A DNA stretch of 64,000 nt from the UHGV virus genome UHGV-0141727; one strand, given 5' to 3'. The position numbers and the translations under genes are program-made. Source of the DNA: a virus. Shown here one piece after another: positions 2,743 to 58,966 of the stretch. How positions within the stretch are numbered: position 1 is the stretch's first letter; each line of letters begins with the position of its first letter. Under the pieces are notes generated by a model. The model saw only the letters and a program-made list of their open reading frames with translations. It was not told the origin of the DNA and did no database searches.

Positions 2743-2788
2743 ATCATACATTCCTGATTAGAAACATCAATTTAATTTTCTAACACAC
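2743..2788 (-). promoter_or_regulatory. promoter-operator of immI-like module 1
   Basis: Minus strand GTGTGTTAGAAAAT-taaaTTGATGTTTCTAATCA-ggaatg-TATGAT. The -35 is TTGATG (2770-2765), the -10 is TATGAT (2748-2743), spacer 16. The palindromic operator overlaps the -35. Confidence 0.6.
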
Positions 2789-2842
2789 AATTACGAGCGA
2801 TGATTTTTCCGCCGCACGGTTATTGTACAGTCAATCGCAACA

Positions 2843-3896: not shown

Positions 3897-3970
3897 GCAG
3901 TCGCTACCGGAGCAGTGACCGCGATCCTACTCGATCACGTGCCGTCGGATCAACAGTGTATAAAAACACA

Positions 3971-4004
3971 CTGTGTTAGAAAATTAAGCTAGCTTTTAGC
4001 TCAC
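3971..4004. promoter_or_regulatory. operator site (strong left half, degenerate right half)
   Basis: CTGTGTTAGAAAAT at 3971-3984 is identical to the left arm at 42127-42140. The right half CTTTTAGCTCAC matches the consensus at 7/12. Confidence 0.45.
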
Positions 4005-7687: not shown

Positions 7688-9073
7688 TCAGGTTTCCAGC
7701 CCAAAATCGCTTTGTTCTGTTTTGGCTTCGAACATCGTGAAGTTAAGCCCTTTCCCCTCTCCATGTTCCAGTTCAATCTCATTAGAAACAGCGGTCAAAA
7801 TACTACGTAGATCGACATCTCCACCGCCGAACATATCGCCCAACGCCTGCTGTTTATGAATCAGTTCGTCGTTGATTTTTTGTGCCATTTTTTTGAATGC
7901 AGCCCCCATGCGCTTCGCGCTTCGATTATTTGCCACGATGAATAGCGCCAACGCCTCAGCTTCCGGCGTGCTATCACCGAAGAGTCCGCGCTGGGCTATC
8001 ACCTCTTCCACTGCCTGACCGTTGTCTTTGGCTTCACGAACAAGGTTAATCGCGTCCTGGAGTGCTGCTATAGCCTGTTTATCCAGACCGTTCACCTGCT
8101 CTATACCATCAACCAGACCAGTTACAGCATCATGATGTGCATCGCCAGAAATCGACTGCATTTGCGCAAAGTCACTGGCTGCTGTATTAAGCGCGGTCAG
8201 GATATTGCGCATTTCCGGATCCGGTTCTTCCGCCACAAGCCGAACAAGTCGCTCATCCTTATAGGCTTTGGCAAAAATCGCATTCTGAATGCGATCGATA
8301 AGCTGTTTCGTTGGACGTCCATCGGCTGTAAGCAAACCTGCCGTCGCGGTATCGCCTATTTCGTGCAAAAACGCACGAATAAACGCATCATTGGACCGCG
8401 CCAGTAGATTGCCATCATCTGAAGGATTAAATAGCGCCATGACGCTCTCAGTGAGAAATTGCGCATCCGCATACGCTTTCTCACTTGCAGCCATCTCTTG
8501 CAGATCGCTGATGTTTGAGTCGCGTGCAAATTGAGCACGATCAACGTCAGTGAGGCGCTCGCGAACCAGTACAGGCATCACCATTGCCCTGACGTCTTCG
8601 GGATTAAGGCCAAACTCTTTAGCGTGATCGATAAGATATTGTCGGTAATCTTCAGCCTGCCCTTGTTCATAAGCACGCCAGATTCCCATGCTTCGACCAT
8701 TACCAGACTCAACGACATTATCCGGACCAACAATCGGGGAACCATGACTACTCATACCCGAATCAGTGAGTTGTGCCGGGCGTAAATTGGCGGCGATACG
8801 GTTAACCTGGAGCTTACTTGACAGTCGGGTGCGATCGCGAGGCTGGAGTTCCTCCGGAAATGACGGATTTATACTTCCGTCCAGGTTGTTAGAAATGATG
8901 AGCTTTTTGGCATCAATAACCTTGAACGCTGTTTTAACTTCGTCGCCTTTGCTGGTGACGACATAGCTGCTACGCCCCAACTTCGTCTCTTGCTTTTCAA
9001 GAGATGACACCACAGCGATAACCCCCTCAATGTTCGCTGCGGCTAGAAGTGCTGATGTTACGTTTTGAGTCAC
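7688..9073 (-). CDS. DdrB-like protein with ParB/Srx-like domain (Dar antirestriction operon position)
   Basis: 461 aa. N-terminal region with the ELQPRDR motif of the ParB-like (DdrB-type) family. Last gene of the lydA..ddrB-like operon. Confidence 0.45.
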   Translation of the reverse strand: MTQNVTSALLAAANIEGVIAVVSSLEKQETKLGRSSYVVTSKGDEVKTAFKVIDAKKLIISNNLDGSINPSFPEELQPRDRTRLSSKLQVNRIAANLRPAQLTDSGMSSHGSPIVGPDNVVESGNGRSMGIWRAYEQGQAEDYRQYLIDHAKEFGLNPEDVRAMVMPVLVRERLTDVDRAQFARDSNISDLQEMAASEKAYADAQFLTESVMALFNPSDDGNLLARSNDAFIRAFLHEIGDTATAGLLTADGRPTKQLIDRIQNAIFAKAYKDERLVRLVAEEPDPEMRNILTALNTAASDFAQMQSISGDAHHDAVTGLVDGIEQVNGLDKQAIAALQDAINLVREAKDNGQAVEEVIAQRGLFGDSTPEAEALALFIVANNRSAKRMGAAFKKMAQKINDELIHKQQALGDMFGGGDVDLRSILTAVSNEIELEHGEGKGLNFTMFEAKTEQSDFGLET

Positions 9074-9164
9074 AATTAACCACCTTTCTGTAAAAAAGGC
9101 AGTGTAAAAAGTGTGTTATTTCGCTGACTATTTTAAGAAGAAAGGGGCATTCTGCCCCTCTCTT

Positions 9165-9536: not shown

Positions 9537-11482
9537 ACGCCCCCTTGTTGTATCTCTGCCAAAATGTTGATCAGGTGATCGGCTGCCGCACCAACAAGTG
9601 ACTCGTTCTCATCATATCGACCTGCGTTGATAAGAACATTAGCTGCCTCCTGAATGCGATCAAACTCCGCTCTAATCACCGTCAAATCACGGGACGTAAA
9701 CTGCAACGGCACGGATTTCAGATATTCCAGCGCACTGTCCGCCTCCTGATCAGCCTCACTAACGACTGGCCCATCTGAACCTGTATCAGACTCTTGGGGG
9801 GATTCAGGTTCAGACTCAGGTACTGGTACTGGTACTGCTTCCGGTGCCTGATCTAATGTCTGTTCAGCTTCGACTACTTCTGATTGATTCTGAAGCGCGT
9901 CATAGATATCCATTATAAAAAGGTTCTCCCCATCTCCAAGTGGATAAGCGACGTTAGGAAATGCTTTGCGGAAGAGGATTTTTATCTGCGCCTTAAAGGT
10001 TTTCAAGTCGCTTCCAAACAGATCAACATAGCCATCAATATGGTTCGACATACTGGACGCAACCAATTCGCCTGCAATCTCTTTCAATTCATCGTCACCA
10101 GGGAGATATAGCAACTCGTACTGACTGACTTCTTCGTCTGTCAGTTTGCGGTCATACGTAATGATTCCGTGACGAGCATATTCGTAATACGGATCAGCCT
10201 GATCAGGACGGTCAAGTACAGCTTTATTTCCTTCAGGAACCGCACCAACACCCGCCGGGCGAGATTGGAGCGCATAGCGATATTTACCAACCTCCAGGGG
10301 ATCAGGATGTGATTCTGGTTGTGGCTCCTGTTCAGGCTGCGGCTGATCAGTTGGCTCAGGCTGGCCCGGCAACACATCCACTTTGTATTGATCAGCATTA
10401 TGTTCACGATAGGCTTTAAGTAATTTGGTTGCAGCGTCCGCTGAACTCCCACCTTTAACAGCACTGACATCAATACTGAAATTGCCTTCTGGTGCCTCAA
10501 TCGTGACAAAGCTATCACTGCCTGACGTGACATACTTAACTACAGCACCATTATCCAGCGTTGTTTGGCCTTCTGTAGCAAGATTATGTTTTATGTGTCG
10601 CAGTTGATCATTGAAGGCACGCTCTTTAGTTCCTTGGCTCTTAGCTGACAATAAATTATCGCGTTTAGCCTGCAATTCCGCGTTAAGGGCTTTTTGTGCG
10701 TCTAATTTATTCTGCATATCATTGAGTGTTGAGCGTTTCTCTGCCAGCCCCCGCTGTGCGTCTTCAACCTGCTCAATCAGCACAGAACGTTCTTCTGCCA
10801 GCTTGTCGGCTTCATTGAGATACCCCTCAATATCAGCCTTCATTTTGTCTTGGCGCTCCTTTGCTTTTTTGAATTTTGCACTATTACGCTCAATGAGGTT
10901 AGAAAGCGCCTGGCATACCTGGCTCAGAGATACATCACGCCCACCGATTGGCGCAACAACATGCGTAACGTTTCTTTTGTTAAGAAGAAACTGAAACGCA
11001 ACCAGCTCGTCATCCCCTTTAATTCTTGTGCCGTCTGCGGTTGGAGAATGGAAAATTATGCTTGTCGTTTGCCCATCGGTTAGAGGTATTTGTGCTGTTA
11101 CAACAGGGATATTAGCAACCCGGCGCACGCGCCCAATGATTGCCCCACCGATACTATTACGTCCGTCTTCATATTCACCTGCCTCATCCGTACCCGCAGC
11201 AATGTCAGTGCCATTCAGGCCGCGATTAAGCGCCCGGACAAATGCTCGCATTGTTTGCGCTAACCGCAATTTTGTTGTGGTTATAGCTTCGAACATTGCC
11301 TCATTGGTAGTTACCAAAATTTCGTTGCCCATATAGGCCAGCTCGATATCTTCCAGCGTCGCAGGCTCGATAAGTAAATCATCCTCGGTGATATCTTCCG
11401 CCACCCAACGATTAGGCGTATATCCAGTGAGCGTATCTGCAAAAGTGGACTGGATATTTATTCGAATAGGTTTCTTTATCAT
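9530..11482 (-). CDS. DarA-like internal head / antirestriction protein (by size and synteny)
   Basis: 650 aa. Central coiled coil, Pro/Glu/Gln-rich linker (PGQPEPTDQPQPEQEPQPESHPDP). Same operon position as P1 darA. Confidence 0.4.
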   Translation of the reverse strand: MIKKPIRINIQSTFADTLTGYTPNRWVAEDITEDDLLIEPATLEDIELAYMGNEILVTTNEAMFEAITTTKLRLAQTMRAFVRALNRGLNGTDIAAGTDEAGEYEDGRNSIGGAIIGRVRRVANIPVVTAQIPLTDGQTTSIIFHSPTADGTRIKGDDELVAFQFLLNKRNVTHVVAPIGGRDVSLSQVCQALSNLIERNSAKFKKAKERQDKMKADIEGYLNEADKLAEERSVLIEQVEDAQRGLAEKRSTLNDMQNKLDAQKALNAELQAKRDNLLSAKSQGTKERAFNDQLRHIKHNLATEGQTTLDNGAVVKYVTSGSDSFVTIEAPEGNFSIDVSAVKGGSSADAATKLLKAYREHNADQYKVDVLPGQPEPTDQPQPEQEPQPESHPDPLEVGKYRYALQSRPAGVGAVPEGNKAVLDRPDQADPYYEYARHGIITYDRKLTDEEVSQYELLYLPGDDELKEIAGELVASSMSNHIDGYVDLFGSDLKTFKAQIKILFRKAFPNVAYPLGDGENLFIMDIYDALQNQSEVVEAEQTLDQAPEAVPVPVPESEPESPQESDTGSDGPVVSEADQEADSALEYLKSVPLQFTSRDLTVIRAEFDRIQEAANVLINAGRYDENESLVGAAADHLINILAEIQQGGVW

Positions 11483-32124: not shown

Positions 32125-32238
32125 TTACTTCTTTTTGGGTGTTTTTCGTGTCTTTGAAGTGCTCGCGGCGATAGTTTCACCTTCGTTTACTTCAATTGCC
32201 GTTGGTGAAACTGACACGTTCGCCACTGCTACTTTTTT
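32125..32238 (-). other. candidate -1 programmed frameshift site plus 35-codon extension at the capsid gene end
   Basis: mRNA reads GA-A_AAA_AAG-UAG, with the heptamer at 32238-32232 directly before the stop. The -1 frame is open to 32125 and encodes VAVANVSVSPTAIEVNEGETIAAS..., which resembles Big_2 N-terminal strands. Confidence 0.35.
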
Positions 32239-33926
32239 TCGTTGATTTGCCCGCTCAACATGTCAATCGCACCTTCTTTCGAACGTGTCAGGCGAAGGCG
32301 AGTGAAATAGTTCTCACCGTTGCGCGGATGCACATCGTTGATTGCTTTGCCCCAAAAAGTGGTGCGGTTCACTAGGGCTGGATTTGTTTCGTGGACATAC
32401 GGAATAGCAGGCACAGCATCACCTGCGACCAGGCCTGCTTTACCAATGCCTTCGCCACGACCATAGAAATAGATGTCGTCCAGGCCGAAGTCGTAGCCAT
32501 ATTTCTGGAATTGTTTGCAGATAGGCTTCGGCACTTCGTAGATACGAATGGAACCAAACAGGGTGCCGATGTATTGAATGTACGGCGACTGTACATAGCC
32601 CGGTGCCAACTGGAAGTGCTGCGGCGGTAAGGAACGCAGGAAGTTAGCAGCATCGCCACCAGCAAAGCCACCACGGATACCGGTGGTCAGGGTGCGGTCA
32701 GCCATCTCCTGTGACAGCGCGTTCACAACATGGCGAATTAAACCAACCCACGACTCGTAGTTCTGCGCTTCTGGCAGTGCCACATCAAATTCACGACCGT
32801 AAACGGTGTGGAATACCAGAGTGCGCAGGCGCATCATATCGATTTCGTGGGAAATCCAGTTGCGCATTGCAGAGAATTGCAATGCTGCCAGTTCGAGTCC
32901 GTGTTCACGGCTCAGGTCAGATGCAGCCATAACCGTATGTTCGGATGCGATCACGTACTCCGACGGGCGCAGGGCGTAATTGCGCATGGACTGGTTAATG
33001 ACTGGTATCAGGTTCGGATTGCGTTCAATGTTGATTTCAACCTGAACAGCGATTTCAGTGCCTTCTGCTGGTGCTTCATTAAAGGTGATATCGATAACGC
33101 CGGTATCGTATCGAACCTTTGCCGTCACAGAGAAAGAGTTGCCGTTGACGTCTTTGTCGTTGAAATACAGGTTGCCGTCACCATCATCTACTTTGGACGG
33201 TTTGCGGTTAATCAGCAGTTTGTTGTAGCCCTGGCGCAGCGGGCAGGCCTGGCCTTCGAAGTTCTGGATATCAAACTGGAAGGTGGTTTTTCTGCCATCG
33301 CCTTTTTCGGTCAGGATGTACAGGCGTTTCATCTGCGAATACACGCCAGCAGACTGCATGTTCAGTTCATCGCCCTGCTCGAATGTACCGAATTTTGTAC
33401 CAGCAACGTTGGTCAGCTCGTAAATATTGGTTTCATCACGATCACAAGGGATAAACGTACATGCGTCGCTGGTGGCTGCGCCGAGAGAAGCAGGCAGGAT
33501 CAGTGCGGCATATTGTGCAACCTTCATTACACCATCGGAGGTGCGCATGTCCTTGGCTACTGATTCAAACATGGCTTTGCCAGCGCCTTCATGCGTCTCT
33601 TTAGCGGACTCCATCATCAGGCGCTCAAGTGCCACATGGGCGTTGGCTAATACATCGCTTGCCGGATAATGCCCATACTGGCGTTTGTATTCATGAATAG
33701 ACATGGCCCAGCTACCAATGATCTGGCGAGCTGCTTCTGGTTCAACGCCTTCAAACATAGGCTCTTTCTGGATAGCTTTTTCCAGGTTAGCCATCATCAC
33801 TTCGTTGTCGGCAATCATGTTACCGGCAGCATCAGTGGTTGGATCGACGGTCATAGCCATGACGCTTGCCGCCCGATTCATAATCTCGCGCTCGCGCTTA
33901 CGAGCTGGCTCAATGTTCTTGTTCAC
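32229..33926 (-). CDS. major capsid protein (P1 gp23 position)
   Basis: 565 aa, GTG start. Size and placement next to the sheath gene as in P1 (22, 23). Confidence 0.6.
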   Translation of the reverse strand: MNKNIEPARKREREIMNRAASVMAMTVDPTTDAAGNMIADNEVMMANLEKAIQKEPMFEGVEPEAARQIIGSWAMSIHEYKRQYGHYPASDVLANAHVALERLMMESAKETHEGAGKAMFESVAKDMRTSDGVMKVAQYAALILPASLGAATSDACTFIPCDRDETNIYELTNVAGTKFGTFEQGDELNMQSAGVYSQMKRLYILTEKGDGRKTTFQFDIQNFEGQACPLRQGYNKLLINRKPSKVDDGDGNLYFNDKDVNGNSFSVTAKVRYDTGVIDITFNEAPAEGTEIAVQVEINIERNPNLIPVINQSMRNYALRPSEYVIASEHTVMAASDLSREHGLELAALQFSAMRNWISHEIDMMRLRTLVFHTVYGREFDVALPEAQNYESWVGLIRHVVNALSQEMADRTLTTGIRGGFAGGDAANFLRSLPPQHFQLAPGYVQSPYIQYIGTLFGSIRIYEVPKPICKQFQKYGYDFGLDDIYFYGRGEGIGKAGLVAGDAVPAIPYVHETNPALVNRTTFWGKAINDVHPRNGENYFTRLRLTRSKEGAIDMLSGQINEKK

Positions 33927-34004
33927 GGTTAAACCCTAAATTCGGGCGCGGCGTGAAGATTCTTTTGACGAGGTGACAATACTCACTTTGTTATTTAGTC
34001 AATA

Positions 34005-34070
34005 GCATTAGAAAAATAATTTTCGTTAACAATCTTGTGTTAGTATGGTTTAATCTTAATTTTCTAACAT
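34005..34070. promoter_or_regulatory. double operator region between capsid gene and plus-strand operon
   Basis: GCATTAGAAAAAT at 34005-34017, plus the palindrome GTGTTAGTATGG-N10-ATTTTCTAACAT at 34037-34070. Confidence 0.55.
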
Positions 34071-34084
34071 AAAACATTAGAACA

Positions 34085-34477
34085 ATGGCGTACAAGATCT
34101 TCGTTTCATACAAAAATGGTGCTAAAAGCCATTCTCTGAACACAAGCAGCAGATGCCTTGTAGAAGCTCAACTGTCATCAATCCTTACTGAAAGAGACAT
34201 TCTTTCCTTGGCTGAACGAATCGTGATTCTCCATTCAGGTAAGGCTATTCTTAATGTTCCTGCGCTTACCCCGCCTTCTGACGTTTTGGCATCTGTTAAG
34301 TGGCCTCAAATCGGCACACCTGTAAGAGTGGAAGATCCTGTAACCACCACTCTTTATATGCCGAAGTCAGTAAGGGATTGGCTTGCTGCGGTTGGTAATG
34401 GGAAGGTCAGCGCGGGGCTTCGGAAGTTAGTGGAAATGGCTGATATTCCGGAGCTGAAAAATGCATGGAGACAGTGA
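34085..34477 (+). CDS. small protein with C-terminal ribbon-helix-helix-like segment (candidate regulator)
   Basis: 130 aa. TTLYMPKSVRDWLAAVGNGKVSAGLRKLVEMA has a strand-helix-helix pattern. No SD, and the ATG is close to the predicted transcription start. Confidence 0.35.
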   Translation: MAYKIFVSYKNGAKSHSLNTSSRCLVEAQLSSILTERDILSLAERIVILHSGKAILNVPALTPPSDVLASVKWPQIGTPVRVEDPVTTTLYMPKSVRDWLAAVGNGKVSAGLRKLVEMADIPELKNAWRQ

Positions 34478-34947
34478 GCAGAGGACACATGAGTCACGCG
34501 AACCCATCGAAAACACAATATCGTTTAATGCTGGCTATCGCGTCAGCTATACCAACCAGCCTGAATCCACCCGCTGGCTATCCCGCTATTGTTGATGATT
34601 GTTTTCAGTATTACGGAGAAGACATCCTGAGCCAGTCCAAAGCGCTCAAGCAGTTATGTAAGGCAGGTATTCTTCACTGTATCGGAGATCCGGACGATTT
34701 TGTTGTTATGCTGGCGGATCGTGACTCTTTTCTGCTGTCATGGAAAGCCGGGGCGCGCGAAGCGCGTTTGGGCAATGGTATTGGCTACATCGACTATAGC
34801 GATTGTCCGCTGGCATTTGCTGGTGGATATATGCATTGGCATGAGCGAAATAGAGGCCGTCAGCGCCAGTATCGCTTGAGTGACTTTAACGTCTGTCACG
34901 GTTTCGAAGAAGCTGACAGCCAGGACATCTGGCTTCAGGAGCCTTAA
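34465..34947 (+). CDS. hypothetical protein
   Basis: 160-aa ORF. AGAGGA SD favours the internal ATG at 34489. Possible wHTH-like SKALKQLCKAGILHCIG. Confidence 0.45.
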   Translation: METVSRGHMSHANPSKTQYRLMLAIASAIPTSLNPPAGYPAIVDDCFQYYGEDILSQSKALKQLCKAGILHCIGDPDDFVVMLADRDSFLLSWKAGAREARLGNGIGYIDYSDCPLAFAGGYMHWHERNRGRQRQYRLSDFNVCHGFEEADSQDIWLQEP

Positions 34948-35267
34948 CCCCCCTTCCCTTCCCAAATCTCCCTATTCCTTTGGTTATTCAGTACGTTTCG
35001 TTGGTTGCATTCATCGATAGTGCTGAATAACTGTTCAGTGTATGCCGGATACTTGTTTAACAGCACAGGCGTGTCCTCTGGCACTATGCAAGGGGTATAA
35101 TCAATCAGATTTCCCTGCGGTTTGCTGGTGGCTTCTACGGTAATTTGCATTGGCACGCTGATTGATTTCTTTTGCCCGTTCCCGCTGCATCCTGATAACG
35201 TCATCAGGCACACGCACATCATTAACCCCAGCATTGCGTAAAGCAGTTTCAAGACGAGTAATTTCAT
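34944..35267 (-). CDS. o-spanin (outer-membrane lipoprotein, Rz1-like)
   Basis: Signal peptide with lipobox LSGC. Starts inside the i-spanin gene in another frame and extends beyond it (overlapped architecture). Confidence 0.7.
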   Translation of the reverse strand: MKLLVLKLLYAMLGLMMCVCLMTLSGCSGNGQKKSISVPMQITVEATSKPQGNLIDYTPCIVPEDTPVLLNKYPAYTEQLFSTIDECNQRNVLNNQRNREIWEGKGG

Positions 35268-35559
35268 TCTGGCTTTCCTCCCGTTGTTTGATCAGGCTGG
35301 TATTCAGTTCTGCTGTTTTGCGCTGGTACTCCTTCTCCAGTGTTTTAATTCTTTCGTTTTCAGCCATCATGGCAGATCGCGATTTTTCACTTAACTGCAA
35401 TGCGGTAGAAAGCGTGTTGTTCTCGCTTTCAAGTTGTGATTTTGAGTCTTCCAGGGAACGGATATACCTGATGTGATCGATAACTGCCGCCGTAGTACGG
35501 TAAATTCCATAAATGGCTAAAAGCGCAACTACTATCAAAATTATCTTTTTCAAAACCAT
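35101..35559 (-). CDS. i-spanin (Rz-like)
   Basis: 152 aa. N-terminal TM KKIILIVVALLAIYGIY, then a coiled-coil periplasmic domain. Confidence 0.7.
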   Translation of the reverse strand: MVLKKIILIVVALLAIYGIYRTTAAVIDHIRYIRSLEDSKSQLESENNTLSTALQLSEKSRSAMMAENERIKTLEKEYQRKTAELNTSLIKQREESQNEITRLETALRNAGVNDVRVPDDVIRMQRERAKEINQRANANYRRSHQQTAGKSD

Positions 35560-35629
35560 CCTCTTCAGATTTTTTGTTGGTGTGATATGTGTACCAATTT
35601 GTAACCATTTATGGGCTTAAATGGTGTGG

Positions 35630-36424
35630 TTATGGTTCCTTTTTAGTGTTGCTTTGGAGCGCATCGATTACACCTTGTGGCATGATCAAACTGATTGCCG
35701 GACTCATTACTTCATCGCCCAGTAGAGAACCGGTTAACGTAATAGCTACAGCATTTTCCAGTCCCTGTTTGGCTTTTCCGGTAGAGTCCTTAACTTGCTG
35801 TGCAAGTGTTGAGAGACTACTGCTCGTGTTGTTTATTGCATTTATTTGTTCTGTTGCTGCTTCCACAGCGTCTTTTAGTGCTTTGATCTCTTCTTCTGTT
35901 AGTGCTGGTTGCTGTGTTGTTCCGGTGGAACTTCCGTTGCCTGAAGCCTCCTCGCTTGACGCCTGAACTTTTGCATTTATAGCGGTCATAGCTGAAGTGA
36001 TTGGCACCAGTTCAAATGCTGCCAACGCGTCAATAAGCGATTGCGGATGCAGGGTATCTCCCATAACTGTTACGAGAGCAAATTCTGGCGCAGGAGATAA
36101 CTCATTACCTTTGACGTAACATTCCCAGCCAATTTTCATCTGAAGTAATTCAGTTGGCGAAGTATACGGAGACAGCGAGTCGGCTAAATGGGTTGCTTCT
36201 GCACTGACAGTTTTCAGTTGTTCTGAAAAGACAGAAAGCTGATTGACCCATGAAACCACCGACGCCGGGTATGCTTTATCCTTCAGGATAAGAGCCTGGA
36301 TATTCTCTTCCAGAGAACTGGCATTGGATGACGCTGTTTTACTTAGCGTGATAGATGCAGGCGTAGTTGTGCCTGATGCATTTAGAATTTTGAATGCGTT
36401 AACTTCAGCGATTGAATCAAGCAT
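35630..36424 (-). CDS. hypothetical protein downstream of PAAR gene
   Basis: 264 aa, Ser/Thr/Ala-rich. Its start overlaps the PAAR stop. Confidence 0.35.
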   Translation of the reverse strand: MLDSIAEVNAFKILNASGTTTPASITLSKTASSNASSLEENIQALILKDKAYPASVVSWVNQLSVFSEQLKTVSAEATHLADSLSPYTSPTELLQMKIGWECYVKGNELSPAPEFALVTVMGDTLHPQSLIDALAAFELVPITSAMTAINAKVQASSEEASGNGSSTGTTQQPALTEEEIKALKDAVEAATEQINAINNTSSSLSTLAQQVKDSTGKAKQGLENAVAITLTGSLLGDEVMSPAISLIMPQGVIDALQSNTKKEP

Positions 36425-42120: not shown

Positions 42121-42163
42121 GTAAAACTGTGTTAGAAAATAAAACTCAATTATCTAACACAGT
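42121..42163 (-). promoter_or_regulatory. promoter-operator of the rdgC / C5-MTase / dam operon
   Basis: 38-bp palindrome ACTGTGTTAGAAAAT-N8-ATTATCTAACACAGT (1 mismatch). The -35 is TTGAGT at the centre and the -10-like element is TTTTAC at 42126-42121. ATG at 42115 has no SD. Confidence 0.65.
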
Positions 42164-53208: not shown

Positions 53209-53256
53209 AATGTACAACGGTGAATTTCACAATTCAACTTAAAATGTTAGAAAACT
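53209..53256 (-). promoter_or_regulatory. promoter of immI-like module 2 with upstream operator half-site
   Basis: Minus strand GTTTTCTAACAT (53255-53244), then 6 nt, then TTGAAT (53237-53232), N17, TACATT (53214-53209). The spacer contains the palindrome GTGAAATTCAC. Confidence 0.5.
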
Positions 53257-53830
53257 AATTTATTAATTCAGTCACCATCTGATACAACGTCATTTCATCG
53301 GCATTGTGCCGCCTGAAATCTGCTTTGCCGCCTATTTTTCCATCAGCATGAACAGGGACCAACCAGGGGTATTGCTCGCGTATCTCTGCTGGCGCTGCGT
53401 GTTGATGGTGCCATTTACACAAAGGGAGAACGTATTTATGCGCGTTCTCTGCCGTTCTCCCGAAGATGTGGTGCAGGGATACCACAGGGCTATGCTGTCC
53501 GTGCATATGGCAGGCAATGCAGGGGAGAGCACCGATGGCAGTTTGTATCCGGCGCTCATCTGCTGTGAGCGTTCTGCCTTTCAGGCCACGTGACGTGCGC
53601 GTTTTTTTGACTGGAGCAGAAGCGGCCTTCTCTTTTCTTCGCTGTTCATATTGCTTCGCTTTTTCAATTTTCTTTTGCCGATATTCAGGCGATGCAGCCT
53701 TTTCTCGCGCACGCTGCTGCTGGCGTTGAGCTTGCTGAAGACGCTTTGCCCTTTGTTCCTCCCGCCATTTCGGATCAGCCAGTTTTTTCAGGGCTTTTTG
53801 CGTCTGTTTCTCCCAATAGCTTTGCTTCAT
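53255..53830 (-). CDS. ref: Ref-like HNH endonuclease (P1 recombination enhancement function)
   Basis: ORF 53255..53872 has a TTG start; ATG 53830 is likelier. Basic disordered N-terminus, then RGLKGRT..ERRI...GALPCIACHMHG...SLHHI.GRT...LPLCKWHHQHAAPAEIREQYPWLVPVHADG, closely matching recalled P1 Ref. Confidence 0.8.
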   Translation of the reverse strand: MKQSYWEKQTQKALKKLADPKWREEQRAKRLQQAQRQQQRAREKAASPEYRQKKIEKAKQYEQRRKEKAASAPVKKTRTSRGLKGRTLTADERRIQTAIGALPCIACHMHGQHSPVVSLHHIFGRTAENAHKYVLPLCKWHHQHAAPAEIREQYPWLVPVHADGKIGGKADFRRHNADEMTLYQMVTELIN

Positions 53831-53873
53831 AGAAATACCCGGTTTGTCTACATCGCCGCTATGGTTGATCAAA

Positions 53874-53920
53874 TGTGTTAGAAAATCAAAATTGATTTTC
53901 TAACACAAAATGAAGATACT
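53874..53920. promoter_or_regulatory. best-conserved promoter-operator (divergent: ref / plus-strand early operon)
   Basis: Perfect 15-bp arms TGTGTTAGAAAATCA-aaat-TGATTTTCTAACACA at 53874-53907. Plus-strand promoter is TTGATT (53892-97), N17, GATACT (53915-20). Confidence 0.7.
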
Positions 53921-54101: not shown

Positions 54102-54713
54102 ATGGCTATACGCATTATGAAAATTTACATCGCGGGTCCGATGACTGGTTATCCCGACTACAACCGCACAGCGTTTTTTTCGAAAGCAAAAGAGCTGATG
54201 GAGGAAGGGCATATTGTTCTGAATCCGGCGCTGTTACCTGCTGGCCTCTGCCAGAGCGAATACATGGATATTTGCCTTGCTATGGTGCGTTCGGCTAATG
54301 CGGTCTATTTGCTCAAGGGGTGGGAGGAATCAGTTGGCGCTCGTGCAGAGCACGAGCTGGCTCAAAAGCTGGGGCTGAATGTAATTTATGAGTCACCAAC
54401 CAACATTGAATGCCAGGTTGCTCCGCATATTTACCGGGAACTGGTCAATGCACTGCGTGATATCGCTGCTGTATATCACGGCACAGAACAGCTTCGTGAG
54501 CGTTTAGCCCATACCATTTCCTATTACCTGTCTGCATCTCATGAGCACAAGCTCCGTCAGAAGGTAATGATCAAATTTATCATGAGGTTATCGAAATCCC
54601 TGGCAAACGCCGATCCAAAGAATCCATTACCGAAAGTGGCAATGAATTACCTGAAGTCCTGCAACATTGTTTCTGAAGATGGCGTTCTTTTGGTTAGAAG
54701 GAGTTCTGCGTGA
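54102..54713 (+). CDS. DUF4406 / nucleoside 2-deoxyribosyltransferase-like protein with C-terminal extension
   Basis: ORF 54075..54713. MKIYIAGPMTGYPDYNRTAF...VLNPA...W(E)ES.GA..E matches the DUF4406 signature. Start at 54102 or 54117. Confidence 0.65.
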   Translation: MAIRIMKIYIAGPMTGYPDYNRTAFFSKAKELMEEGHIVLNPALLPAGLCQSEYMDICLAMVRSANAVYLLKGWEESVGARAEHELAQKLGLNVIYESPTNIECQVAPHIYRELVNALRDIAAVYHGTEQLRERLAHTISYYLSASHEHKLRQKVMIKFIMRLSKSLANADPKNPLPKVAMNYLKSCNIVSEDGVLLVRRSSA

Positions 54714-58895: not shown

Positions 58896-58926
58896 TCCTG
58901 AACACATCGTTTATGCACTCAAAATG

Positions 58927-58966
58927 ATGTTAGAATATTGATTTTAATTTTCTAACAGATTATTTT
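58927..58966 (+). promoter_or_regulatory. promoter-operator of the 59000+ operon
   Basis: ATGTTAGAATAT-N8-ATTTTCTAACAG. The -35 is TTGATT (58938-43), N17, TATTTT (58961-66). Confidence 0.6.

What the first reader, a model, noticed from the sequence alone, without database searches (positions are those of the whole stretch)
34005..34947. Two-gene plus-strand operon behind a double operator: RHH-like protein plus unknown partner
This is the only plus-strand unit between the head and lysis genes. It is preceded by two operator copies (34005-34017 and 34037-34070).

The first product ends in a strand-helix-helix pattern typical of Arc/CopG RHH DNA binders (TTLYMPKSVRDWLAAVGNGKVSAGLRKLVEMA). The second product (about 152-160 aa) has no recognisable family.

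An operator-controlled, possibly autoregulated DNA-binding pair at this position could be part of the immunity circuitry, for example a co-repressor or anti-repressor. It could also be an uncharacterised two-component accessory system.
Basis: inference. Interest (0 to 1): 0.5.

Follow-up and report, generated by a model that had tools for sequence, protein, structure and literature searches.

The report
Repressor-controlled early operon, D6-like phage-plasmid
Two real but uncharacterised genes of a D6-like (P1-family) phage-plasmid sit behind one genuine binding site for the prophage repressor; the first is a conserved, probably DNA-binding protein and the second is an exchangeable passenger gene, so this is an ordinary early operon and not a new two-part system.

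Summary
The window is a D6-like, P1-family phage-plasmid. The finding corresponds to D6 orf52 and orf53, both still annotated as hypothetical.

Both genes are real (dN/dS 0.02-0.18). orf53 starts at ATG 34489 and is 152 aa.

Site 34054-34073 (- strand) is a strong C1-type operator. In D6 the same motif lies directly upstream of the c1, lpa, repL, icd/ant and ref homologues. It is invariant in five diverged relatives and overlaps the predicted transcription start. Site 34002-34021 is weak and not conserved. The left arm of the "palindrome" is not an operator.

The orf52 product has a confident N-terminal alpha/beta domain. Its C-terminal strand-helix-helix block shows RHH hallmarks and is conserved down to 30% identity. 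No profile or fold search confirmed RHH membership.

The orf53 product models confidently as a winged helix plus a helical domain. That domain weakly resembles ribosome modulation factor.

The genes are not an obligate pair. orf52 always lies divergent from the capsid gene (42/42 loci). The slot after it holds orf53, an icd/antirepressor module, unrelated cargo, or nothing.

Best reading: a C1-repressed early operon, with a conserved regulator-like gene followed by a variable cargo slot. Interest is low to moderate.

The parts
33927..34084 (.). Divergent control region between the capsid gene (gene 23 homologue) and orf52. The left half is strongly conserved and is probably the gene 23 promoter and leader. 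The right half carries the orf52 promoter and operator.
   Evidence: Alignment of five diverged variants and further relatives.
34054..34073 (-). C1-type operator (core 14-mer TGTTAGAAAATTAA at 34056-34069). It lies just downstream of the -10 element and covers the predicted transcription start.
   Evidence: Exact 14-mer match. PWM score 24.9 bits, rank 8 of 128,000. TTTTCTAACA is invariant in five variants. The orthologous D6 site is 54202-54221, among sites upstream of c1, lpa, repL, icd/ant and ref.
34002..34021 (+). Weak operator-like site (CATTAGAAAAATAA), upstream of the -35 element.
   Evidence: PWM score 11.9 bits, rank 13. It forms a 12-nt inverted repeat with the strong site. It is variable in relatives and scores below 12 bits in D6.
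34026..34054 (+). Predicted sigma-70 promoter of orf52: -35 TTAACA (34026-34031), 17-nt spacer, extended -10 TGgTTTAAT (34046-34054).
   Evidence: Read by eye. Conserved in four of five variants. The consensus scanner found no promoter because the -10 hexamer has T at position 2, so the assignment is tentative.
34085..34477 (+). orf52 homologue (130 aa, PHROG 7830). It has an N-terminal alpha/beta domain (residues 1-70), a linker, and a C-terminal RHH-like module (about residues 86-120, i.e. 34340-34444).
34480..34485 (+). Shine-Dalgarno AGAGGA of orf53. It lies in the 11-nt gap after the orf52 stop codon (34475-34477).
   Evidence: Sequence. The start is fixed by the homologue alignment.
34489..34947 (+). 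orf53 homologue (152 aa, PHROG 8101). It has a winged helix-turn-helix domain (residues 8-75) and a helical C-terminal domain with invariant H116 and H137-G138 and nearly invariant C136.
34944..35559 (-). Context: overlapped spanin pair. The o-spanin lipoprotein is 34944-35267 (lipobox LSGC). The i-spanin is 35101-35559. The genes are convergent with orf53, the stop codons overlap by 4 nt, and there is no terminator between them.
32229..33926 (-). Context: major capsid protein gene (P1 gene 23 homologue). It is divergent from orf52 in every relative examined.

Best explanation
This is an early operon of a D6-like phage-plasmid. The prophage repressor C1 keeps it off, and it is switched on when repression is lifted.

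Promoter and operator. A promoter (TTAACA-17-TGgTTTAAT) is overlapped at its start site by one conserved C1 operator (34054-34073).

First gene, orf52. It is a core gene of the D6 lineage and always lies back to back with the capsid gene. Its product has a fast-evolving N-terminal alpha/beta domain and a conserved C-terminal module with the hallmarks of a ribbon-helix-helix DNA binder. I infer that it acts as a dimeric DNA-binding regulator. The most plausible target is the shared 160-bp control region: its own promoter, the capsid late promoter, or both.

Second gene, orf53. It occupies a variable cargo slot between orf52 and the spanin genes. Its product is a winged-helix protein with a helical C-domain. 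Relatives travel on their own in other phage-plasmids and in a Vibrio phage, within arrays of early genes.

Shown: gene reality, operator identity and conservation, synteny, separability, and the fold predictions.

Inferred: repression by C1, early timing, DNA binding, and the targets.
For: OPERATOR IDENTITY
- The motif is enriched in the window.
- The PWM separates about 10 strong sites (at least 21.5 bits) from background (at most 6.6 bits); this site scores 24.9.
- In D6 the same PWM finds sites directly upstream of c1, lpa, icd/ant, repL, hrdC, ref and pdcB, as well as orf52.
- That matches the P1 C1 regulon: 22 dispersed asymmetric 17-bp operators, with C1 controlling RepL and Lpa (PMC8546580).
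- The operator block TTTTCTAACA is invariant while the rest of the spacer diverges.

GENES ARE REAL
- dN/dS is 0.016-0.025 for orf53 and 0.07-0.18 for orf52.

ORF52 IS CORE AND SYNTENIC
- It lies divergent from the capsid gene in 42 of 42 IMG/VR loci, with capsid protein identity down to 65%.

VARIABLE SLOT AFTER ORF52
- The slot is empty, or holds unrelated cargo, or an icd/Rha module.

RHH HALLMARKS
- The AF2 model has pLDDT 84, with an extended segment followed by two helices.
- The invariant block is Y91-M-P93, L100, G104, G106, G111, R113.
- hhalign puts LYMPKSVRDWLA in register with Arc LRWPREVLDLVR.

ORF53 FOLD
- pLDDT 93, pTM 0.89.
Against: - The AF2 monomer does not show the beta-strand, and no dimer could be modelled.
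- The predicted -10 hexamer has T at the normally invariant second position, and the promoter scanner found nothing.
- There are no expression data.
- The more distant clade (L126-L145) lacks this operator sequence upstream of orf52, so C1 control there is unverified.
- Nothing identifies the DNA target or the biological role of either protein.
Confidence: 0.5

Rival explanations
1. A type II toxin-antitoxin or abortive-infection pair. orf52 would be the antitoxin, with a partner-binding domain plus an RHH for autoregulation. orf53 would be the toxin, possibly acting on ribosomes through its RMF-like domain.
For: - The gene order is a small RHH-like gene first, with an 11-nt gap to the second gene.
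- The first gene evolves faster than the second.
Against: - No PADLOC, Pfam or NCBIfam toxin-antitoxin or defence hit.
- The genes are separable in both directions. A lone toxin in 14 loci and in a Vibrio phage would be untenable.
- The promoter carries a C1 operator and shows no obvious autoregulatory repeats.
- All the structural matches are below significance.
- hhalign against RMF gives only 2% probability.
Confidence: 0.08
2. A component of the immunity circuitry: a Coi-, Lxc- or Ant-like modulator of C1 (anti-repressor or co-repressor), expressed from a C1-controlled promoter.
For: - It is C1-operator-controlled, like coi and ant in P1.
- D6 has no annotated coi or lxc.
- In about 12% of D6-like plasmids orf53 is replaced by an icd/Rha-type antirepressor module. 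This could indicate functional equivalence.
Against: - tblastn of both proteins against 50,697 phage records found only D6, plus Vibrio phage douglas 12A4 for orf53, so neither has a detectable P1 relative.
- orf52 diverges to 40% identity while the operator core stays invariant, so it does not co-vary with repressor specificity.
- The replacement module is on the opposite strand and fits a generic cargo hotspot, alongside unrelated cargo in other relatives.
- orf53 relatives sit in long arrays of early genes away from any repressor locus.
Confidence: 0.12
3. Early anti-defence or host-takeover proteins and not transcription regulators. The orf52 N-domain would neutralise a host factor, as Dmd does. 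orf53 would bind host nucleic acid or ribosomes.
For: - Early, repressor-controlled expression is inferred.
- orf52 changes rapidly at the amino-acid level, concentrated in the N-domain.
- There is a weak resemblance to Dmd.
- orf53 relatives lie among small early genes.
- The locus is a cargo hotspot.
Against: - dN/dS is well below 1, so no positive selection is detected.
- The structural similarities are insignificant.
- Invariant synteny with the capsid gene suggests a core function and not an accessory one.
Confidence: 0.15
4. Spurious ORFs or a chance motif: not a functional unit.
For: No family annotation exists. The promoter and terminator scanners found nothing.
Against: - Strong purifying selection.
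- Confident AF2 models.
- Conservation in more than 120 plasmids and 42 viral contigs.
- The operator ranks 8 of 128,000 positions and is invariant across relatives.
Confidence: 0.01

Closest known systems
P1 C1-repressor regulon (dispersed asymmetric 17-bp operators, consensus ATTGCTCTAATAAATTT, controlling early operons such as repL, lpa, ant and ref)
   Same: The operators are AT-rich, asymmetric and 14-17 bp long. They are dispersed over the genome, and some form overlapping bivalent palindromes. They sit upstream of the same gene homologues: c1, lpa, repL, icd/ant and ref (PMC8546580). The site at orf52 overlaps the predicted transcription start.
   Different: The consensus is (c)TGTGTTAGAAAATTAA and not the P1 sequence. 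The controlled genes, orf52 and orf53, gave no tblastn match in any phage record other than D6 and Vibrio phage douglas 12A4, so they have no detectable P1 counterpart. C1 binding was not tested.
Arc/Mnt/CopG ribbon-helix-helix repressors
   Same: The pattern is strand, Pro, helix, Gly-x-Ser turn, helix. LYMPKSVRDWL aligns in register with Arc LRWPREVLDL. The block is the most conserved part of orf52.
   Different: The module is at the C-terminus, behind a 70-residue alpha/beta domain. There is no significant profile or fold match. The helix-2 N-cap Ser is Ala in the distant clade. The dimer was not modelled.
MarR/SarA/ArsR-type winged helix-turn-helix proteins (for the orf53 N-domain)
Ribosome modulation factor (RMF / CrpP fold) (for the orf53 C-domain)
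   Different: There is no Pfam RMF hit. hhalign gives E 0.024 and probability 2%. This is a resemblance only.
T4 Dmd antitoxin (for the orf52 N-domain)
   Different: The match is not significant. There is no sequence similarity. orf52 carries an additional DNA-binding-like module.

Membership tests
P1-type C1 operator | A short asymmetric AT-rich motif present in many dispersed copies, far above chance. | tested here: met
   17 matches against 7.6 expected; 0 of 100 shuffles reach 17. The PWM leaves a clear gap between about 10 sites at 21.5 bits or more and background at 6.6 bits or less.
P1-type C1 operator | Sites lie at promoters of the known C1 regulon (c1, lpa, repL, ant, ref). | tested here: met
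   The D6 scan finds sites directly upstream of c1, lpa, icd/ant, repL, ref, hrdC and pdcB (with the annotation). The P1 regulon is described in PMC8546580.
P1-type C1 operator | The site at this locus is conserved and positioned to block the promoter. | tested here: met
   TTTTCTAACA is invariant in five variants. It lies immediately downstream of the conserved TGnTTTAAT element.
P1-type C1 operator | Bound by the C1 repressor. | not testable with these tools
   This needs EMSA, footprinting or a reporter assay. The c1 gene is not in the window.
Ribbon-helix-helix (Arc/MetJ/CopG) superfamily | Significant match to an RHH sequence family or profile. | tested here: not met
   No RHH family appears in Pfam scans of the full protein or of 12 C-terminal domains at E up to 10. 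A PDB profile search gives no RHH hit. hhalign against Arc gives E 0.46.
Ribbon-helix-helix (Arc/MetJ/CopG) superfamily | Strand-helix-helix secondary structure with a Gly-x-Ser/Thr turn before helix 2. | tested here: inconclusive
   AF2 gives helices 94-103 and 108-119 after an extended segment at 86-92. No strand is called in the monomer. G106-K-V-S109 is present, but the Ser is Ala in the distant clade.
Ribbon-helix-helix (Arc/MetJ/CopG) superfamily | Homodimer with an intermolecular antiparallel beta-ribbon. | not tested
A homodimer prediction is the decisive computation.
Ribbon-helix-helix (Arc/MetJ/CopG) superfamily | Structural match to solved RHH proteins. | tested here: not met
Type II toxin-antitoxin pair | The two genes co-occur obligatorily. 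| tested here: not met
   orf52 occurs without orf53 in 20 of 41 informative loci and in about 15 plasmids. orf53 relatives occur without orf52 in 14 of 15 loci and in Vibrio phage douglas 12A4.
Type II toxin-antitoxin pair | Match to a known toxin or antitoxin family. | tested here: not met
   No hits in PADLOC, Pfam or NCBIfam.
Winged helix-turn-helix (orf53 N-domain) | A three-helix bundle plus beta-hairpin wing, superposable on known wHTH domains. | tested here: inconclusive
Rmf/CrpP family (orf53 C-domain) | Sequence-profile membership. | tested here: not met

The most novel reading that the evidence does not exclude
orf52 is a core early factor of D6-lineage phage-plasmids. It would couple a Dmd-like, partner-binding anti-defence domain to an RHH DNA-binding module. 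It would also gate a downstream cargo slot. In this phage the cargo, orf53, would be a phage-encoded RMF-like protein targeted to ribosomes, or a wHTH-tethered RNA/DNA binder, released only when C1 repression is lifted. That would be a repressor-gated host-translation or anti-defence switch not described for P1-family phages.
Probability: 0.06. Interest if true: 0.7.

Novelty: new member of a known kind. Interest (0 to 1): 0.3.

Why it matters
D6-like phage-plasmids occur in about 1.7% of complete E. coli genomes, and also in Salmonella, Shigella and Enterobacter. Their regulation is inferred almost entirely from P1.

This analysis makes four points:
- It defines the C1 operator motif of the D6 group.
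- It adds one conserved early operon to its regulon.
- It shows that orf52 is a lineage-wide neighbour of the capsid gene.
- It identifies a cargo hotspot between orf52 and the spanin genes.

None of this overturns current views. It gives testable targets (orf52 DNA binding, the role of orf53) and a useful annotation. It does not give a new principle.

Tried and rejected
- Sequence-family searches on both proteins (Pfam, NCBIfam, PADLOC, PDB sequences) and on alignment members found nothing. Only PHROGs of unknown function matched.
- I tested RHH membership with hhalign against a verified P22 Arc sequence. The register was as expected, but E was 0.46. The Arc relatives fetched were all at least 96% identical, so no diverse RHH profile could be built.
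- I tested the RMF resemblance of orf53 with hhalign against a verified E. coli RMF sequence. It was not significant.
- The consensus promoter and terminator scan of 33850-35150 found nothing.
- The Rfam scan of 33500-35700 gave only a chance miRNA hit.
- I looked for a shared late-promoter motif using the conserved left half of the intergenic region. No convincing repeated element turned up, so the 'gene 23 late promoter' label remains an assumption.
- The D6 genome paper and the P1 genome paper are not held in the library.
- Cargo proteins from relatives were scanned against Pfam and PADLOC. Only RDD and GYF_2 domains were found, in one protein.
- Rejected as operators: the palindrome 34037-34070 (left arm -3.7 bits and not conserved) and the CATTAGAA repeat at 34075 (-8.8 bits).

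Full report
IDENTITY OF THE REGION

Region 33900-35000 is 85% identical in nucleotide sequence to Escherichia phage D6, a P1-family phage-plasmid. It is up to 97% identical to roughly 90-kb non-mobilizable plasmids of E. coli and E. marmotae.

In D6 the two + strand genes are orf52 and orf53, both annotated 'hypothetical protein'. They are flanked by the major capsid gene (similar to P1 gene 23) on one side. On the other side are orf54 and orf55, followed by homologues of upfB and upfC and then StbA/StbB partition genes.

I identify orf54 and orf55 as an overlapped spanin pair. The o-spanin is 34944-35267, with lipobox LSGC. The i-spanin is 35101-35559, with an N-terminal transmembrane segment.

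THE GENES ARE REAL

orf52 is 34085-34477 (130 aa). orf53 begins at ATG 34489 (152 aa) and not at the upstream ATG 34465. Every homologue starts MSH, and an AGAGGA Shine-Dalgarno lies at 34480-34485, in the 11-nt gap after the orf52 stop codon.

I made Nei-Gojobori comparisons with three diverged relatives:
- orf53: dN/dS 0.016-0.025.
- orf52: dN/dS about 0.07-0.18, with synonymous sites often saturated.

At the amino-acid level orf52 changes much faster than its neighbours:
- orf52: 80%, 63% and 39% identity.
- orf53: 99%, 97% and 82%.
- Capsid protein: 87%, 86% and 76%.

The locus is present in 123 PLSDB plasmids from Escherichia, Salmonella, Shigella and Enterobacter. It is also in 90 of 5426 complete E. 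coli genomes, always on a plasmid and always annotated as hypothetical.

THE OPERATORS

The 14-mer TGTTAGAAAATTAA has 17 matches with up to 3 mismatches in the window, against 7.6 expected. None of 100 shuffles reach 17.

Exact or near-exact copies lie upstream of the homologues of icd/antirepressor, repL, hrdC, ref and pdcB. Three of them are bivalent palindromic pairs, with a + copy at position x and a - copy at x+16.

I built a PWM from nine sites outside the finding. It gives these scores:
- 34054-34073 (-): 24.9 bits, rank 8 of 128,000 positions. True sites score at least 21.5 bits and background at most 6.6.
- The CATTAGAA repeat at the start codon: -8.8 bits.

The same PWM, applied to the whole D6 genome, finds strong sites directly upstream of c1, lpa, icd/ant, repL, orf52, hrdC, ref and pdcB (with the annotation). 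In P1, C1 binds 22 dispersed asymmetric 17-bp operators (consensus ATTGCTCTAATAAATTT) and controls RepL and Lpa (PMC8546580). The motif is therefore the D6-group C1 operator.

I aligned the capsid-orf52 spacer from five variants. TTTTCTAACA (34060-34069) is invariant while the surrounding bases diverge. The palindrome's left arm is not conserved. The upstream weak site is only loosely conserved, and it scores below 12 bits in D6. The conclusion is one solid operator and one doubtful auxiliary site.

THE PROMOTER

The consensus scanner found nothing. Four of the five variants do conserve TTAACA (34026-34031), a 17-nt spacer, and TGnTTTAAT (34046-34054), which is a 5/6 -35 element and an extended -10 element.

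The T at the second position of the -10 hexamer is non-canonical, so this assignment is tentative. It predicts a transcription start near 34061, inside the operator. That is an efficient arrangement for repression.

No terminator follows orf53. Its stop codon overlaps the convergent o-spanin stop codon by 4 nt, so early transcripts would run antisense into the spanin genes.

THE ORF52 PROTEIN

orf52 has no hit in Pfam, NCBIfam, PADLOC or PDB sequences. It belongs to PHROG 7830, of unknown function. Only about 20 clusters among 5.8 billion proteins are related.

AlphaFold2 on 15 sequences gave pLDDT 84. The model has three parts:
- A confident N-terminal beta-beta-alpha-alpha-beta-beta-alpha domain (residues 1-70).
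- A low-confidence linker.
- Helices at 94-103, 108-119 and 122-129, preceded by an extended segment.

The C-terminal block (V/T-x-L/I-Y-M-P, R-D/E-W/F-L, G-x-G, S/A-x-G-L/M-R-K) is the most conserved part of the protein down to 30% identity. It shows RHH hallmarks: a strand ending in Pro, and a Gly-x-Ser turn before helix 2.

THE ORF53 PROTEIN

orf53 has no sequence family. It belongs to PHROG 8101. An exhaustive profile search of 1.84 billion representative proteins found only 23 relatives.

H116, H137 and G138 are invariant, and C136 is nearly invariant. This suggests a metal site or a structural site.

THE TWO GENES ARE NOT AN OBLIGATE PAIR

Of 15 IMG/VR loci with an orf53 relative, only one also has orf52. 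One caveat applies. The search pattern missed the D6-type sequence FAGGY, so this set is biased towards non-D6 elements.

Vibrio phage douglas 12A4 carries an orf53 relative inside a long array of small genes next to rdgC and an oligoribonuclease gene. It has no orf52.

Conversely, all 42 IMG/VR loci with an orf52 relative have it divergent from the capsid gene, with capsid protein identity from 65% to 100%. In the 20 most distant loci there is no orf53. The interval between orf52 and the spanin genes there is one of the following:
- 70 bp of nothing.
- An RDD/GYF_2 membrane protein.
- A protein of about 555 aa with an HExxH motif, on the opposite strand.
- Other unknown proteins.

In about 15 of the 123 PLSDB plasmids orf53 is replaced by a convergent icd/Rha-type antirepressor module.

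orf52 is therefore the conserved element, and orf53 is one occupant of a variable cargo slot.

INTERPRETATION

The best-supported reading is a C1-repressed early operon. Its first gene is a lineage-wide, probably dimeric DNA-binding protein. The second gene is a mobile early accessory gene.

The invariant back-to-back arrangement with the capsid gene makes the shared 160-bp control region the most plausible target of orf52. That is inference only.

The rival readings are a toxin-antitoxin pair, an immunity modulator, and an anti-defence function. The first is weakened by separability. The second is weakened by the absence of detectable P1 relatives and of any co-variation with the operator. 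The third is weakened by the absence of positive selection. None of the three is fully excluded.

NOVELTY

The kind of thing is well known: a repressor-controlled early operon in a P1-type phage-plasmid. The two protein families are uncharacterised and rare.

The useful by-products are the definition of the D6 C1 operator, the conserved capsid-orf52 synteny, and the cargo hotspot. Interest is low to moderate.

Noticed in passing
window 2770-2789(-), 3970-3989(+), 42126-42163 (bivalent), 53241-53260(+), 53872-53909 (bivalent), 58924-58961 (bivalent): This is a map of the strong C1-type operators in the window (PWM 21.5-29 bits). They lie upstream of the icd/antirepressor, repL, hrdC, ref and pdcB homologues. 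Three are overlapping palindromic pairs, with a + copy at position x and a - copy at x+16. Intermediate sites (10-16 bits) lie at 664, 14413, 36898, 49839 and 56601 and are of unknown significance.
   Followed up: partly
L126-L145 (IMG/VR contigs), between the orf52 homologue (ends about 2884) and the o-spanin gene: This is a variable cargo hotspot. The interval ranges from 70 bp to about 2 kb. It holds unrelated genes: an RDD+GYF_2 membrane protein (L126), a protein of about 555 aa with an HExxH motif on the opposite strand (L130, L133, L140, L144, L145), and AT-rich unknown genes of 200-260 aa (L127, L132, L139, L142). None matches PADLOC.
   Followed up: partly
L020 4090-5660 (E. coli plasmid pNCYU-26-73-5); also H40 and H41: In roughly 12% of D6-like plasmids orf53 is replaced by a convergent icd-like gene plus a frameshifted Rha-family antirepressor gene. 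This looks like a third copy of the immI-type module.
   Followed up: partly
window 34944-35559 (-): This is an overlapped spanin pair. The o-spanin lipoprotein has lipobox LSGC. The i-spanin has an N-terminal transmembrane segment and a coiled coil. Both are annotated only as hypothetical in D6 (orf54/orf55). The o-spanin stop codon overlaps the orf53 stop codon by 4 nt, and there is no terminator between the convergent genes.
   Followed up: no
window 33940-33975: The block CGGGCGCGGCGTGAAGnTTCTTTTGACG, upstream of the capsid gene, is almost invariant even in relatives with only 65% capsid protein identity. It is probably a leader or late-promoter element of gene 23. No repeated copy was found elsewhere in the window.
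   Followed up: partly
L005, L009, L012, L014, L016 (about 1-1.5 kb downstream of the orf53 relatives): The orf53 relatives in other roughly 90-kb viral contigs lie in a conserved neighbourhood. It includes a protein of about 200-235 aa with the motif KGRTPTAEERR...LPCIAC...SLHH. In three loci it also includes a PadR-like regulator next to the orf53 relative.
   Followed up: no
D6 (MF356679) 9067-9086 and 10316-10335: Strong C1-operator matches flank the pmgS (putative scaffold) gene of D6. This location is unexpected for an early-gene repressor site.
   Followed up: no
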